Origin: Gammaproteobacteria bacterium
GTDB taxonomy: Bacteria; Pseudomonadota; Gammaproteobacteria; GCA-001735895
Direction: 5' to 3'
NCBI GenBank assembly: GCA_050298595.1
Contig: JBNKUM010000068.1
Location: forward strand, 1 to 49,638
DNA length: 49,638 nucleotides
Positions 45,863-49,638 of this stretch are shown in pieces (position 1 is the first letter of the stretch; every line of letters begins with the position of its first letter). The notes under the pieces are model-generated. The model saw only the letters and a program-made list of their open reading frames with translations. It was not told the DNA's origin and did not search any database. A program made the position numbers and the translations under genes.

Positions 45863-46459
45863 TTAATAGTTCTGCCGACCGCTAAACGCTTTGCTTAAAG
45901 TACCGCTATCGACATATTCAAGCTCACCACCTACTGGCACACCATGAGCTATACGACTCACCTTGATATCATATTGATGCGCGATGTCGGCGACATATTG
46001 CGCAGTAATCTCACCCTCAACGGTTGGATTGGTGGCAAGAATAACCTCGCTTATAGTTTCACTACTCAGGCGACTTTCTAACAAATCCAGTCCCAGTTGC
46101 TGCGGGCCTATACCATCGATAGGAGACAGGTGGCCGAGCAAAACAAAGTATCTACCATTAAAACTCCCTGATGCATCTATCGCAAGCACATCTGCCGGGG
46201 TTTCAACAACACATAGCACACCGTTTTCGCGCTTATGATCTTTACATATAGTACAGCGAGGTTGATCTGAATAATTTCGGCACAGCTCGCACTGCTTAAC
46301 CGTTTCCAGTGCATTAGTTAATGTTCGGGCAATTGCCTCAGCACCATCGCGATTACGATCAATCAAATACAATGCCATGCGTTGAGCAGATTTACGCCCT
46401 ACCCCTGGCAAACAGCTTAGGGCCTCGACCAGTGCATCTAGAGACGGTGAGGAAGACAT
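45863..46459 (-). CDS. recR: Recombination mediator RecR
   Basis: [12 protein letters not shown]4 zinc finger, Toprim [19 protein letters not shown]. Confidence 0.98.
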
Positions 46460-46468
46460 TAATATATT

Positions 46469-46792
46469 TTAAAAAGGCAGTTTAAAGCCTGGGGGTAGAT
46501 TAAGGCCGGCAGTCATTCCCGCCATAGCATCTTTGTTGGTTTTGGCAATCTTATGCACCGCATCGTTGATCGCAGCAGCGATCAGGTCTTCCAGCATTTC
46601 TTTATCATCTTCCATTAATGCGGCATCAATATTGACCCGAGTAACTTCATGGGTGCCACGCATAACCACTTTACACATACCACCGCCAGATTCACCGGTT
46701 ACCTCAGTATTTGCCAGATCAGCCTGCGCTTTTTGCATTTCTTCCTGCATCTTTTGCGCCTGCTTCATGATATTACCCAAACCGCCTTTCAT
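46469..46792 (-). CDS. ybaB: YbaB/EbfC nucleoid-associated protein
   Basis: [37 protein letters not shown]. Confidence 0.97.
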
Positions 46793-46804
46793 AGATATAC
46801 CTCG

Positions 46805-48594
46805 TTACTCTTTGACTTTTTTAACACTGTTTTCAATTAATCTCGCTCCGAAGAGCGAATTTAGTTTTAGTACCACAGGATCTTGTTTAATCGCTGCGAT
46901 AGCGGACTGATGCTCCTCCTGTTGAAGACGTATACGCGCCTGTTGAGGGGTTTCTGCATCCAGCCTGGGTACACTGATAAAATCGAGTTTTAATTCTAAC
47001 CCAAGTTTGCTTTCTATCGCTTGCTTAATTTGATCTTTAATTCCGGGCTTAATCATTAACTCAAGCTCGGGCAGGTATGCCAGTTGTAAATGATTGTCCT
47101 GCCATGACTGGACGATACAGTTGATCACGACCTGTCCGGCTAGCGCATCCAGATCTAGTTCATGCGCAGTTTTTGACCAGTTAAGTTCATCTTGTGCCTG
47201 TTGTGGCTGGTCTTTTTTGACATCCATTTTATTAGCCACAGGCTCGGGTTTTTTGACCAGTGACAACTCTGCCCGCGCGCTCTCAGGCTCAGGGCGAGGA
47301 GGTTCTTCTGCGCGATTAACACTTTCTACCACCGCTTGTACTGGAGCAACAGTCTGATGGTTAACTGGCGGAGCTTGAATTGCCGGAGATAGAATCGGTG
47401 GTGGTTTTTTTACTTCAGTGACTGAAGAAGAATGGAGTGAGCCTGTCTGTTGCTCGGTTTTAGCCTGAACTACAGGCTTTTTTTTTCCGCCGCAGGTGAA
47501 TCAGTATCCAGAGCTGGGGAAAACGCCAGCATGCGTAGCATCAACATTTCAAACCCAATGGACTGATCAGGACTTAATTCCAGATCCTGCCTGCCCTGTA
47601 AAACGATCTGGTAATACAGCTGAACTTCTTCTGCAGATAACTGATCGGCACATTGCATAATTTCCTGCTGCATCAGACCATCCGCTGGTTGAATCTTTGC
47701 CTGGCTCAGATACAGGGCCATTTGATGGAAGATTTCTATAAAGTCGCTACACACGCGCTGATAATCTGGATTGCGTTCCAGCAAAGTGCGGGTTTCCTGC
47801 AGTAAAGCCGTTGCATCCTGAGCAATCAAAGCCTGGATAATACGAATCAGGTAATCACACGAAATCGCGCCCAGCATGGTTTCCACGGCTTCAGTCTTCA
47901 CAGCGCCGCCGCCAAAGGCTATCGCCTGATCCAGCAGGCTTAATGCATCACGCATACTGCCATCGGCAGCGTGGGCCAGTAGCATCAGCGCCTGATCTTC
48001 GGTTTCTACCTTTTCCTGCTGAAGCAAATCAGCCAGATGCTGCTGGATCTGACTCGGCATCATACGCTTTAGATTAAACTGCAAACAACGAGATAACACC
48101 GTTACGGGCAGCTTTTGTGGGTCGGTGGTCGCGAGCAGGAACTTGACGTGCTCGGGTGGTTCTTCCAGGGTTTTTAACAAAGCATTAAAACTATGCTTGG
48201 AGAGCATGTGTACTTCGTCGATCAGATAAACCTTGTATCGACTACGAGTCGGTGCGTATTGCACATTCTCCAGCAACTCGCGCATATCATCCACACCTGT
48301 ACGTGAAGCAGCATCGATTTCGATCAGGTCAACACTACGCCCTTCATCGATTTCCAGACAGGAACCGCAGGTACCACAGGGCATGGAGCTAATGCCGGTT
48401 TCACAATTGAGCGACTTGGAAAAGATTCGAGCTATGGTGGTTTTACCAACACCCCGGGTGCCGGTAAACAGATAGGCATGATGTAGCCGCTGAGCATCAA
48501 GAGCATTTATCAATGCCTGTAGCACATGCTGTTGCCCCACCATTTCGGTGTAATTTTTAGGGCGCCATTTTCGCGCAAGAACCTGATAGCTCAT
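46805..48594 (-). CDS. dnaX: DNA polymerase III tau subunit (about 596 aa; needs a -1 frame change at the A9 run 47478-47486)
   Basis: AAA+ part (SYQVLARKWRP, GTRGVGKT, DEVH, SRC) in frame 0; -1 frame open from the A run through a Pro-rich linker into the tau C-terminal region (ETP...DPVV...FGARLIENSV) ending TAA at 46805. Confidence 0.88.
47462..47487 (-). other. Putative recoding signal: A9 slippery run + hairpin with stop codon in loop
   Basis: Minus strand GAA AAA AAA AGC CTG TAG TTC AGG CT; AGCCTG/CAGGCT stem with TAGTT loop. Confidence 0.75.
47470..48594 (-). CDS. dnaX: DNA polymerase III gamma subunit (374 aa, product of standard decoding)
   Basis: Ends FEMLMLRMLAF...AAEKKSL-TAG, just after clamp-loader domain III. 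Confidence 0.85.
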   Translation of the reverse strand: MSYQVLARKWRPKNYTEMVGQQHVLQALINALDAQRLHHAYLFTGTRGVGKTTIARIFSKSLNCETGISSMPCGTCGSCLEIDEGRSVDLIEIDAASRTGVDDMRELLENVQYAPTRSRYKVYLIDEVHMLSKHSFNALLKTLEEPPEHVKFLLATTDPQKLPVTVLSRCLQFNLKRMMPSQIQQHLADLLQQEKVETEDQALMLLAHAADGSMRDALSLLDQAIAFGGGAVKTEAVETMLGAISCDYLIRIIQALIAQDATALLQETRTLLERNPDYQRVCSDFIEIFHQMALYLSQAKIQPADGLMQQEIMQCADQLSAEEVQLYYQIVLQGRQDLELSPDQSIGFEMLMLRMLAFSPALDTDSPAAEKKSL

Positions 48595-48643
48595 GGTTGG
48601 ATAAGTATTTTAATGACCGGCAGCTTTGATAAGGCAGTAAATG

Positions 48644-48757
48644 GGTGGCAACCGACACCAGCGCACCCCGGCGCCCAACGTCCCTGCTACCGTTGCTCCC
48701 TTCCGGGCCTGGCGGAGTTTACAGTTGGTTGTCGCGGGGGAACCGATGCCGGTCACC
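48644..48757 (-). ncRNA. ffs: Signal recognition particle 4.5S RNA
   Basis: Minus strand CCGCCAGGCCCGGAAGGGAGCAACGG (domain IV, GGAA tetraloop) inside a long hairpin closed by GGUGACCGGCAUCGGU/GCUGGUGUCGGUUGCC; directly upstream of dnaX. Confidence 0.95.
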
Positions 48758-48848
48758 ATAAACCTGTTTCAGTTATTAATGCCTGAAAAATTCAGGCGGT
48801 ATAGTACTTGTTGAGTGATTAAATGAAAAGGGCAAATCCCAGACTTAT

Positions 48849-49340
48849 TTAATCCTTGTTAAAAAGATTGCGTAATAGCTTATCGGGTATAGCGCTGGAG
48901 TGTTTAACCTGTTTGGTCACAATATAGCTGAAATAACGTTTCAGCCCCAGTTGGGCATTCAGTAAATCATCAACAAAGCATTGATAATCGTTCACCGACG
49001 CCGTTACGATTTTTAGAAAGTAATCGATGCCCCCACCCACAGCCCAGCATTCCAGCACCTCTGTACGTGCCTGCACAGCCTGTTCAAAGCGATCGAAGTC
49101 CTGTTGTTTGTGACTCTCTAACTCTACTTCCATGATAATAAAGGTAAGATCTCTGACCAGCTCTTCAGACAGACTTGCACAATAGCCTTCAATAAGACCC
49201 GCCTTATCCAGGCGTTGTAATCGCTCCCAACAGGGTGTGGGCGACAGGTTCACACGTCGAGCCAGTTCCGTTTTGGTAATCCGGCCTTCACGTTGAAGAA
49301 TGGATAAGATCTGAATATCACGCTCATCTAATTTAATCAT
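48849..49340 (-). CDS. Lrp/AsnC regulator (ectoine-catabolism AsnC/DoeX-like)
   Basis: LDERDIQIL..LQREGRIT..LARRVNLSPTPCWERL HTH, CWAVGGGIDY; overlaps eutB end. Confidence 0.88.
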   Translation of the reverse strand: MIKLDERDIQILSILQREGRITKTELARRVNLSPTPCWERLQRLDKAGLIEGYCASLSEELVRDLTFIIMEVELESHKQQDFDRFEQAVQARTEVLECWAVGGGIDYFLKIVTASVNDYQCFVDDLLNAQLGLKRYFSYIVTKQVKHSSAIPDKLLRNLFNKD

Positions 49341-49638
49341 AGCCGTCGCTAATCACCTGCATAAACTGTTGCATATCTATATTTTGACCCGAAATAATCA
49401 GCGCAACATTGCGCCCGATTAAACTGGAATAACGTAATTCAAGGTCAGGGTCGATCAATAACGCGGCACCAACAGCAGCCGCACCTTCGCTAACCAGACG
49501 TTCCTGCCAGAATAGATGGCGCATACCCGCCGCAATCTGTGGCTCGGTTAATAAAACGACCTTATCGGCCAGGGCTTGAGTCATCGAAAAAGTGAATTGA
49601 TTATTCGTCCCAATACCTCCACCCAGAGAGTCTGCCAG
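49333..49638 (-). CDS. eutB: PLP threonine-dehydratase family, EutB-like (hydroxyectoine utilisation), 3' fragment; 5' end outside window
   Basis: Frame open to window end: LADSLGGGIGTNNQFTF...EGAAAVG...IISGQNID. Confidence 0.78.
   Translation of the reverse strand: MADSLGGGIGTNNQFTFSMTQALADKVVLLTEPQIAAGMRHLFWQERLVSEGAAAVGAALLIDPDLELRYSSLIGRNVALIISGQNIDMQQFMQVISDGYD

What the first reader, a model, noticed from the sequence alone, without database searches (positions are those of the whole stretch)
46805..48594. Inverted dnaX recoding: gamma by default, tau only through slippage at A9
Seen: frame 0 reads ...GCG GCG GAA AAA AAA AGC CTG TAG and stops at 374 aa, just after domain III. The -1 frame (equivalent to A10) is open from the run (KPVVQAKTEQQTG...PPPILSPAIQAPP...) into ORF 46805..47332, giving about 596 aa. 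The +1 frame (A8) stops after ACSSG (377 aa). A 6-bp hairpin AGCCTG-TAGTT-CAGGCT abuts the run and holds the stop in its loop. Established: E. coli makes tau in frame 0 and gamma by -1 shift at A AAA AAG; Thermus thermophilus uses transcriptional slippage on A9; tau is essential. Inference: here the essential subunit depends on recoding, by A_AAA_AAA ribosomal shift or RNA polymerase slippage. Similar inverted dnaX cases have, as I recall, been predicted in other phyla, so the novelty would be lineage and signal. A homopolymer assembly error is the main alternative, but the break falls right at the expected gamma boundary.
Basis: partly seen in the sequence, partly recalled or inferred. Interest (0 to 1): 0.85.

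Follow-up and report, generated by a model that had tools for sequence, protein, structure and literature searches.

The report
dnaX: tau made only by recoding
In this uncultured marine gammaproteobacterium the replication gene dnaX stops early by default and can make its essential long form (tau) only by slipping one base at a conserved run of nine A's, an arrangement predicted in other bacteria in 2013.

Summary
dnaX (minus strand, ATG 48594) reads GAA AAA AAA AGC CTG TAG and stops at 374 aa, just after domain III. The -1 frame runs on to 46805, carries tau domain V (PF12170) and gives a 596-aa tau. An independent contig from another sample also shows A9.

The same break occurs in 35 of 68 examined genomes of the window's order, which is a single family of 79 genomes. 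It is present in every determinable genome of three genera and in 21 of a fourth. In all 35 the run has at least 9 A's and tau lies in the -1 frame.

The other 32 genomes have the same A9-GCCTG site one phase over (NTA AAA AAA AAG CCT GAA). There tau is in frame and a stop lies one codon into the -1 frame. So the whole order makes two products at one site, and the polarity has flipped.

Run length of at least 9 is selected against codon usage. I favour RNA-polymerase slippage (one extra A), with ribosomal -1 shifting as the rival. No RNA data covered the run.

This type of dnaX was predicted by Antonov et al. 2013, so this is a new member of a known kind.

The parts
47470..48594 (-). dnaX frame-0 ORF, the gamma-like product of 374 aa (domains I-III)
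   Evidence: One search gives PF13177 at residues 20-177, PF22608 at 182-230 and PF12169 at 232-358.
47478..47486 (-). Run of nine A's, the slippage or shift site. It sits in phase as G-AA AAA AAA A-GC.
   Evidence: A run of at least 9 A's is conserved in 35 of 35 broken-type and 31 of 31 continuous-type loci of the order.
47470..47472 (-). Frame-0 stop TAG, two codons after the run. It ends gamma.
   Evidence: In 32 of 35 broken-type relatives (window included) a TAA or TAG lies in this position; in L009 and the two g3 loci it lies further on.
47460..47462 (-). Stop TAA of the +1 frame, read by A8 or A11 messages. It gives a 377-aa gamma-like variant.
   Evidence: Read. In one search the +1 frame closes within 3-13 codons in 35 of 35 broken-type loci.
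46805..47479 (-). The -1 frame continuation, the tau-specific C-terminal part (linker, domains IV-V). Joined to the N-terminal part it gives a 596-aa tau.
   Evidence: PF12170 (tau domain V, binds alpha) scores E 3.5e-14. One search places it at 46823-47203 and finds it is the only copy in the genome.
47462..47478 (-). Local hairpin AGCCTG / TAGTT / CAGGCT. It is present here but not conserved.
   Evidence: 6 of 6 pairs in the window, at least 5 of 6 pairs in 8 of 35 broken-type loci, and an empty RNAalifold consensus.

Best explanation
This is a programmed recoding site in the only dnaX gene of the genome.

**What happens by default (shown).** Standard decoding of the DNA-encoded A9 message ends two codons after the run. 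It gives a gamma-like clamp-loader subunit of 374 aa.

**How tau is made (inferred).** Tau carries domain V, which binds the polymerase alpha subunit. It is made only from messages or ribosomes that reach the -1 frame at the run. I think the main route is RNA-polymerase slippage on the nine A's, as shown for Thermus thermophilus dnaX. Transcripts with one extra A (A10, also A7 or A13) join the two frames and are then translated normally. A9, A8, A11 and similar transcripts all end within a few codons and give gamma-like proteins. Ribosomal -1 slippage on A_AAA_AAA may add to this.

**Shown:** the sequence, the frames, the domains, the single gene copy, conservation of the run and of the frame relation across an order, and the absence of conserved stimulators.

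**Inferred:** that tau is made at all, the mechanism, and the ratio of the two products.
For: 1. **Real and single-copy.** A 555-base contig from another sample spans 47048-47602 with 0 differences and 0 gaps. There is only one dnaX match and one PF12170 match in the 98.6%-complete genome.
2. **Conserved break.** 35 of 68 examined genomes of the order have a frame-0 stop at 373-379 aa and a run of A9 (31) or A10 (4). In 33 of these the -1 frame is open 135-300 codons; in L009 and L032 it runs off the contig at 121 and 80. The +1 frame closes in 3-13 codons in all 35. N-terminal identity falls to 66% and the flanking linker is not alignable.
3. **Sister arrangement.** 31 fetched continuous-ORF loci have the same A9(A10)-GCCTG in the other phase (32 genomes counting G072). 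Tau is in frame, and in 29 of 31 a stop follows one codon into the -1 frame. So the same -1-type event is productive in both arrangements whatever the phase. This is what a transcription-level event predicts.
4. **Run length is selected beyond a heptamer.** The codon that starts the run is GAA or CAA in 35 of 35 broken loci. In 27 of 31 continuous loci it is GTA, CTA, ATA or TTA, yet these codons make up only 15-17% of Val, Ile and Leu codons in the same genes.
5. **E. coli-type stimulators are missing.**
   - RNAalifold finds no consensus structure downstream or upstream.
   - An SD-like motif lies in the 18 nt before the run in 2 of 35 broken loci.
   - The heptamer in phase is A_AAA_AAA, which the review read reports as much less shift-prone in E. 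coli than A_AAA_AAG.
   - Variants A_AAA_AAC exist (L040 and L041, L071).
   - The genome has two predicted tRNA-Lys(CUU) genes.
6. **Long A and T runs are depleted.** The ratio of counts for successive A-run lengths falls 0.35, 0.27, 0.17, 0.09, against 0.275 expected from composition. Baranov et al. 2005 read this pattern as selection against slippage-prone runs.
7. **Precedent.** Thermus A9 slippage is described in the passages read. Two-ORF dnaX genes with poly-A were predicted by Antonov et al. 2013.
Against: - **No RNA or protein evidence.** The one metatranscriptome run that held part of the stretch did not cover the run, and all runs were available only as contigs, which drop minority variants.
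- **Ribosomal shifting cannot be excluded.** A_AAA_AAA in phase is a legitimate -1 ribosomal shift heptamer. The continuous sister clade has the exact E. coli heptamer A_AAA_AAG in phase.
- **Other long runs are tolerated.** The genome tolerates 83 A or T runs of exactly 9, some inside long open frames. Slippage at nine A's therefore cannot be very costly, or is not very frequent, in this organism.
- **Extra conserved bases are not fully explained.** GCCTGTAATTC after the run, and a G ending the codon before GAA in 32 of 35 loci against a 28% background, are only partly explained by the need for a stop codon. They could be a ribosomal or other signal that I did not recognise.
- **Slippage behaviour of this lineage's RNA polymerase is unknown.**
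Confidence: 0.6

Rival explanations
1. Programmed -1 ribosomal frameshifting. Ribosomes decoding AAA AAA in the P and A sites slip back one base on A_AAA_AAA and continue in the tau frame. The message itself is uniform A9.
For: - The heptamer is in the correct phase in the window and in all A9 broken-type loci.
- The continuous sister clade carries A_AAA_AAG in phase with a stop one codon into the -1 frame, exactly as in E. coli.
- Atkins et al. 2016 treat reversed dnaX cases as candidate ribosomal frameshifts.
- Conserved bases flanking the run might be an unrecognised stimulator.
Against: - No conserved downstream structure was found. There is no conserved upstream structure, and an SD-like motif occurs in only 2 of 35 loci.
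- Nine A's are conserved where seven would do.
- A_AAA_AAA and A_AAA_AAC are reported as much weaker than A_AAA_AAG in E. coli.
- tRNA-Lys(CUU) genes are predicted in the genome.
- The same cassette is kept in two different phases.
Confidence: 0.3
2. Artefact or decay. The break is a homopolymer sequencing or assembly error, or dnaX is a pseudogene.
For: The break sits in a homopolymer, which is a classic error site. The genome is a 119-contig assembly.
Against: - An independent contig from another sample is identical across the site.
- 35 species from many studies share the break with the same frame relation.
- No member of the broken group has an in-frame run.
- The -1 frame stays open for 135-300 codons through a fast-evolving linker.
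- This is the only dnaX and the only tau domain V in the genome.
Confidence: 0.02
3. Split gene. The C-terminal ORF (GTG at 47332 or another start) is translated on its own, and the cell works with a gamma-like DnaX plus a free domain IV-V protein.
For: An ORF with a GTG start is listed at 46805-47332.
Against: - The -1 frame is open all the way from the run, not just from an internal start. This holds in the 33 broken loci whose contig reaches the end of the ORF and as far as the contig goes in L009 and L032.
- KKKP follows directly on the run and is conserved in tau of the whole order, including the continuous genes.
- By established knowledge of the clamp loader, a free domain V could not tether the polymerase to it.
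Confidence: 0.03
4. DNA-level phase variation. Replication slippage gives A9 and A10 subpopulations, and only A10 cells make tau.
For: Homopolymer runs are mutable. A10 continuous genes exist in the order (L067 and L073-L075).
Against: - By established knowledge tau is essential in every cell, so A9 cells would not replicate.
- All 35 assemblies show the broken phase.
- The contigs from a second sample show A9 only, although contigs hide minorities.
Confidence: 0.02

Closest known systems
Two-ORF ('reversed') dnaX genes predicted by GeneTack (Antonov et al. 2013, NAR, PMC3711429; taken up in Atkins et al. 2016, PMC5009743). I read passages of both.
   Same: - dnaX spans two ORFs, with a -1 frame change at the DNA level.
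- There is a poly-A stretch at the junction (10, 9, 8 or 7 A's in their cases).
[quoted passage not shown]
- Recoding is needed for tau, and transcriptional realignment was proposed.
   Different: - **Lineage.** Theirs were 17 genes from 12 genera among complete genomes of 2013. Chlorobi are named in the text and the rest are in Supplementary Figure S3, which I could not see. This case is an uncultured gammaproteobacterial order known from metagenome bins.
- **Both polarities.** Here both polarities occur at one homologous A9-GCCTG site within one order, including inside one genus.
- **Validation.** Neither theirs nor this case has been validated experimentally, as far as searches show.
Thermus thermophilus dnaX transcriptional slippage (Larsen et al. 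2000, PNAS). The paper is not held, so this is known to me from passages.
   Same: A run of nine A's at the gamma/tau boundary. Stops lie close by in the frames that do not encode tau. There are two products from one gene.
   Different: In Thermus the DNA-encoded A9 message gives tau and the slipped messages give gamma. Here it is the reverse, so the essential product depends on slippage.
Escherichia coli dnaX -1 ribosomal frameshift (A_AAA_AAG, upstream Shine-Dalgarno-like element, downstream stem-loop). Read in passages.
   Same: Same gene, same boundary between the shared part and the tau-specific part, a lysine-codon slippery run, and a -1 direction. The continuous-ORF sister clade has the same heptamer in phase with a stop one codon into the -1 frame.
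   Different: In the window the polarity is reversed and the heptamer is A_AAA_AAA. Neither stimulator is conserved. Nine A's are conserved.
Slippage needed for the longer product in other genes: Shigella mxiE (passage) and Citrobacter rodentium tssM (title and abstract only).
   Same: The genome encodes a prematurely ending frame. RNA-polymerase slippage on a homopolymer run restores the long protein in a share of the messages.
   Different: Those are accessory virulence or secretion genes, and some occur in single strains. Here it is an essential replication gene, and the state is fixed across an order.

Membership tests
Two-ORF (reversed) dnaX, Antonov et al. 2013 | Orthologue of dnaX (clamp-loader ATPase domains I-III) | tested here: met
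   PF13177 at 4.2e-44, PF22608 at 1.7e-23, PF12169 at 1.2e-21. The context is ffs-dnaX-ybaB-recR.
Two-ORF (reversed) dnaX, Antonov et al. 2013 | Zero-frame stop directly after a poly-A stretch, with the tau-specific part in the -1 frame | tested here: met
   PF12170 lies in the -1 frame.
Two-ORF (reversed) dnaX, Antonov et al. 2013 | Conservation of site and direction among relatives (programmed, not a mutation) | tested here: met
   35 of 68 examined genomes of the order, all -1 and all with a run of at least 9 A's.
Two-ORF (reversed) dnaX, Antonov et al. 2013 | Both products made in cells | not testable with these tools
   No proteome is available. The RNA run X21 did not cover the site.
Thermus-type programmed transcriptional slippage in dnaX | Homopolymer of nine or more A's at the gamma/tau boundary | tested here: met
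   Run length is kept against codon usage.
Thermus-type programmed transcriptional slippage in dnaX | Nearby stops in both frames that do not encode tau | tested here: met
   The frame-0 stop lies 2 codons after the run. The +1 frame stops within 3-13 codons in 35 of 35 loci.
Thermus-type programmed transcriptional slippage in dnaX | mRNA population heterogeneous in the number of A's | not testable with these tools
   Only contigs were on hand, and the RNA run did not reach the run.
Thermus-type programmed transcriptional slippage in dnaX | Tau encoded in the zero frame | tested here: not met
   Tau is in the -1 frame in the window. This feature is met in the continuous sister clade.
E. coli-type -1 programmed ribosomal frameshift in dnaX | A_AAA_AAG heptamer in phase | tested here: not met
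   The window has A_AAA_AAA followed by AGC. The feature is met in 30 of 31 continuous-type loci; L071 has AAC.
E. coli-type -1 programmed ribosomal frameshift in dnaX | Shine-Dalgarno-like stimulator upstream | tested here: not met
   GGAG, GAGG or AGGA occurs in the 18 nt before the run in 2 of 35 broken loci.
E. coli-type -1 programmed ribosomal frameshift in dnaX | Conserved stem-loop downstream | tested here: not met
The RNAalifold consensus is empty. Mean z of the downstream 60 nt is -0.28.
E. coli-type -1 programmed ribosomal frameshift in dnaX | Single tRNA-Lys (UUU anticodon) decoding AAA and AAG | tested here: not met
   ARAGORN predicts 2 tRNA-Lys(UUU) and 2 tRNA-Lys(CUU) genes. One CUU gene is 99 bases long and may be atypical.

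The most novel reading that the evidence does not exclude
In a whole order of marine-sediment gammaproteobacteria the essential tau subunit has depended, since the order's common ancestor, on RNA-polymerase slippage at A9. One clade inside one genus later flipped back to tau-in-frame by a one-base phase change at the same cassette. L062 would be a transitional form: it is already in frame but still carries the old P-V-I / TAA context. The two polarities would then be a natural, phase-swapped pair. They would show that the slippage rate is near one half and independent of reading phase, which means the recoding is done by the polymerase and not the ribosome.
Probability: 0.4. Interest if true: 0.6.

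Novelty: new member of a known kind. Interest (0 to 1): 0.5.

Why it matters
**Annotation.** Pipelines will call this gene a truncated dnaX plus an orphan ORF, or a pseudogene, in dozens of metagenome bins. It should be annotated as one recoded gene with two products.

**Biology.** It adds an order-wide, long-lived case in which an essential replication protein is reachable only through an 'error' of gene expression.

**A natural test pair.** The order also holds the same A9-GCCTG cassette in both polarities. That pair could settle, with simple reporters, whether such sites work at the polymerase or at the ribosome. It also bears on the idea that a roughly 1:1 tau:gamma output lets a single base change swap the default product, a point made in general terms in the 2016 review read.

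Tried and rejected
**Direct evidence from reads.** All 21 runs found were held only as contigs. I laid X2, X5, X7 and X21. Only X2 covers the run. The RNA run X21 covers 46400-47025 and 47573-48700 at 88-95% likeness and stops short of the site. Nothing can therefore be said about A8, A9 or A10 mixtures.

**Order-level scan.** It returned the same 79 genomes as the family scan. It added only the fact that the order has one family.

**Class-level scan.**
- I searched 301 evenly drawn genomes of at least 90% completeness. One was not scored, and 294 of 300 had a match.
- Only 150 match rows were listed and 146 were not, so no complete count of broken genes in the class is possible.
- Outside the order, six listed rows had short open frames. 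I fetched four of them.
  - G177, G288 and G160 are cut by contig ends.
  - G285 is a true second case.
  - G222 and G313 lie at contig ends by their coordinates, and I did not fetch them.

**Direction of the flip.** The gene tree does not fix it. 'Continuous as one clade' is not rejected (p-AU 0.637) and neither is 'broken as one clade' (p-AU 0.412).

**Genome-wide A9 count as a test of rarity.** A9 runs are not rare, so the run alone is no signal. I dropped that argument and kept only the depletion trend.

**Papers.**
- Larsen et al. 2000 is not held.
- Sharma et al. 2014 gave no usable numbers for A_AAA_AAA in the passages shown.
- The 2025 preprint and the 2022 Caulobacter preprint do not treat reversed dnaX.
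- Supplements are closed. Supplementary Figure S3 of Antonov et al. 2013 lists the genera with A10 and could show whether any gammaproteobacterium was already included.

**Notebook.** The first entry gave wrong run coordinates (47481-47489). Entry 5 corrects them to 47486-47478.
Full report
**1. What is in the window.**
- dnaX lies on the minus strand with its ATG at 48594.
- Frame 0 reads ...GCG GCG GAA AAA AAA AGC CTG TAG and ends at 47472-47470 after 374 residues.
- The run is exactly nine A's, at 47486-47478.
- The 374-aa product holds the clamp-loader ATPase module, the lid and domain III (PF13177, PF22608, and PF12169 at residues 232-358).
- The -1 frame reads KKKPVVQAKTEQQTG... from the run and stays open to the stop at 46807-46805.
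- That frame contains tau domain V, the part that binds the polymerase alpha subunit (PF12170, E 3.5e-14, above the curated cut-off).
- Joined at the run, the two parts give 596 residues.
- The +1 frame ends after ...EKKACSSG at 377 residues.
- The gene sits in the usual context: SRP RNA (48653-48748), dnaX, ybaB, recR.

**2. Not an artefact.**
- A 555-base contig from a different sample of the same study spans 47048-47602 with no difference and no gap (run X2, record 2).
- A second, more distant strain in that sample has two compensating indels just upstream of the run, and none in it.
- The genome is 98.6% complete. It has one dnaX, plus a weak match to a second clamp-loader-like AAA+ gene (E 1.4e-9, not examined further), and one tau domain V.

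**3. Conservation in the order.**

The window's order consists of one family of 79 species-level genomes.
- 69 genomes have a dnaX N-terminal match.
- I examined 68. G059 holds only a 183-residue fragment and was not fetched.

The counts come:

| Arrangement | Genomes |
|---|---|
| Broken (frame-0 stop after the run) | 35 |
| Continuous (tau in frame) | 32 (31 complete, plus G072, whose contig ends after 509 open codons but has the run in the continuous phase) |
| Undeterminable | 1 (G078, contig ends before the site) |

By genus:

| Genus | Broken | Continuous | Other |
|---|---|---|---|
| g1 (the window's) | 10 of 10 | 0 | - |
| g2 | 2 of 2 | 0 | - |
| g3 | 2 of 2 | 0 | - |
| g4 | 21 | 32 | 1 undetermined, 1 not fetched |

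In all 35 broken genes:
- frame 0 stops at residue 373-379;
- the run has nine A's (31) or ten (4);
- tau is in the -1 frame;
- the +1 frame closes within 3-13 codons.

In 33 of them the -1 frame is open for 135-300 codons. In L009 and L032 it runs off the contig at 121 and 80 codons.

The four A10 cases are L040 and L041, where the G after the run became A, and the two g3 genomes.

The consensus is G GAA AAA AAA AGC CTG TAA TTC. The linker on either side is too diverged to align. L009 differs: its stop lies 26 nt downstream of the run.

Named records show that these are metagenome bins labelled 'Gammaproteobacteria bacterium'. The Olavius algarvensis Gamma 3 endosymbiont belongs to g4 and has the continuous type. 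The nearest named genus outside the order is Marinobacter at 61-64% identity. The dnaX genes of Marinobacter and Porticoccaceae are continuous and have no run of seven or more A's in codons 330-470.

**4. The same site in the other phase.**

The continuous genes of the order were the most informative result.
- All 31 carry, at the homologous place, NTA AAA AAA AAG CCT GAA. This is again nine A's, or ten in four genes written GAA/CAA AAA AAA AAG.
- Here tau (..V-K-K-K-P-E..) is in frame.
- The -1 frame ends after one codon (GCC TGA or equivalent) in 29 of 31.
- The +1 frame ends within 7 codons in 27 of 31.
- KKKP is conserved in tau throughout the order. Nine other families of the class have nothing like it.

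So the whole order makes a long and a short DnaX at one A9 site, and what differs is which product is the default.
- In both arrangements the frame reached by a -1-type event (one extra A, or a -1 ribosomal step) is the one that matters. It is tau in the broken type and the immediate stop in the continuous type.
- Removing one A from the A10 continuous form (GAA AAA AAA AAG CCT GAG CTG A) produces the broken reading frame.

**5. How many flips, and in which direction.**
- I built a maximum-likelihood tree of the first 360 residues with 72 rows and nine outgroups.
- 29 continuous genes form one clade (SH-aLRT 98). L071, on a long branch, is unresolved.
- The fewest changes needed is 2.
- Holding all continuous genes together gives a better likelihood than the free search (p-AU 0.637). 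Holding all broken genes together is not rejected either (p-AU 0.412).
- One flip therefore suffices, and the gene tree does not give the direction.

Two things favour broken-to-continuous:
- Three genera are wholly broken, and the fourth holds both types.
- L062 lies at the base of the continuous clade. It is in frame but still has CCC GTA ATA (P-V-I, with TAA in the +1 frame), as in the broken type.

This direction is an inference.

**6. Mechanism.**

Against an E. coli-type ribosomal signal:
- There is no consensus structure downstream or upstream of the run in either type. Mean z-scores of local folding are near zero.
- A Shine-Dalgarno-like motif precedes the run in 2 of 35 broken loci.
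- The heptamer in phase is A_AAA_AAA. Variants with AAC exist.
- The genome has predicted tRNA-Lys(CUU) genes.

For a run-length-dependent process:
- The codon that begins the run always ends so as to give at least nine A's.
- It is GAA or CAA in 35 of 35 broken loci.
- It is GTA, CTA, ATA or TTA in 27 of 31 continuous loci. These codons are only 15-17% of their families elsewhere in the same genes.
- The cassette A9-GCCTG is the same in both phases.
- Stops lie close by in both frames that do not encode tau, as described for Thermus (passages).
- Long A and T runs are progressively depleted in the genome.

I therefore favour RNA-polymerase slippage, with A10 messages encoding tau, at about 0.6. 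A ribosomal -1 shift stands at about 0.3. The two may act together.

Points against my reading:
- No RNA or protein data are available.
- The genome has 83 other A or T runs of exactly nine, some within long open frames.
- Conserved bases next to the run are only partly explained by the need for a stop codon.

**7. What is known.**
- Antonov et al. [quoted passage not shown] They found 17 genes in 12 genera with -1 at the DNA level. Twelve had poly-A stretches: nine with A10, and Chlorobi with A9, A8 and A7. They proposed transcriptional realignment (passages).
- Atkins et al. 2016 repeat this. They mention an unpublished Chlorobium candidate with E. coli-like stimulators.
- Two full-text searches turned up no later treatment and no experimental test of the reversed type.
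- The list of genera is in a supplement that I could not open.
- In a sample of the class, I found one further family (G285) with a reversed dnaX. It has an A10 run at codon 403-406 and again uses the -1 frame.

**8. Verdict.**

This is a real, conserved, programmed recoding site, and a new member of a known though never validated kind. Its added value has three parts:
- the order-wide fixation of the broken arrangement;
- the presence of both polarities at one homologous cassette;
- the comparative evidence pointing to the polymerase rather than the ribosome.

Interest is moderate, at 0.5.

Noticed in passing
window 48653-48748 (-): Bacterial small SRP RNA (ffs, RF00169, 58.6 bits) lies directly upstream of dnaX. 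The ORFs listed there by the ORF finder (48610-48759 and 48641-48814) are therefore spurious.
   Followed up: yes
L160 (G285:C25:124634-127240, minus strand): A second gammaproteobacterial family has a reversed dnaX at a different place. It reads GAT CCA AAA AAA AAA CTG AAC ... TAA, with an A10 run and a frame-0 stop at 412 aa. The -1 frame is open for 167 codons or more (SKKKTEPARL...).
   Followed up: partly
L062 (G067:C15:17517-20017): This continuous-type dnaX keeps the broken-type context after the run (AAG CCC GTA ATA, with TAA in the +1 frame) instead of CCT GAA. It may be a transitional form of the polarity flip.
   Followed up: partly
window's own genome (contig not recorded), about 221.9-222.6 kb: A cluster of tRNA genes includes Lys(CUU), Asn(GUU) and Lys(UUU) within 800 bases. 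A further predicted tRNA-Lys(CUU) elsewhere is 99 bases long, which is unusual. I did not check whether these are chromosomal, phage-derived or bin contamination.
   Followed up: no
window 47487-47490 and relatives: In 32 of 35 broken-type genes the codon before GAA ends in G, against a 28% background, which gives GG-A9-G. I have no explanation for this conserved G.
   Followed up: no
window 48849-49340 (-): An Lrp/AsnC-family regulator (PF13412, PF01037) lies upstream of ffs. It overlaps by 8 bases the end of an ORF that runs off the window (49333-49638).
   Followed up: partly
window 47492-47497, run X2: A co-occurring related strain (contig depth 37 against 159) carries an inserted T and a deleted base 5 nt apart, just upstream of the run. 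The frame and the A9 are kept.
   Followed up: no
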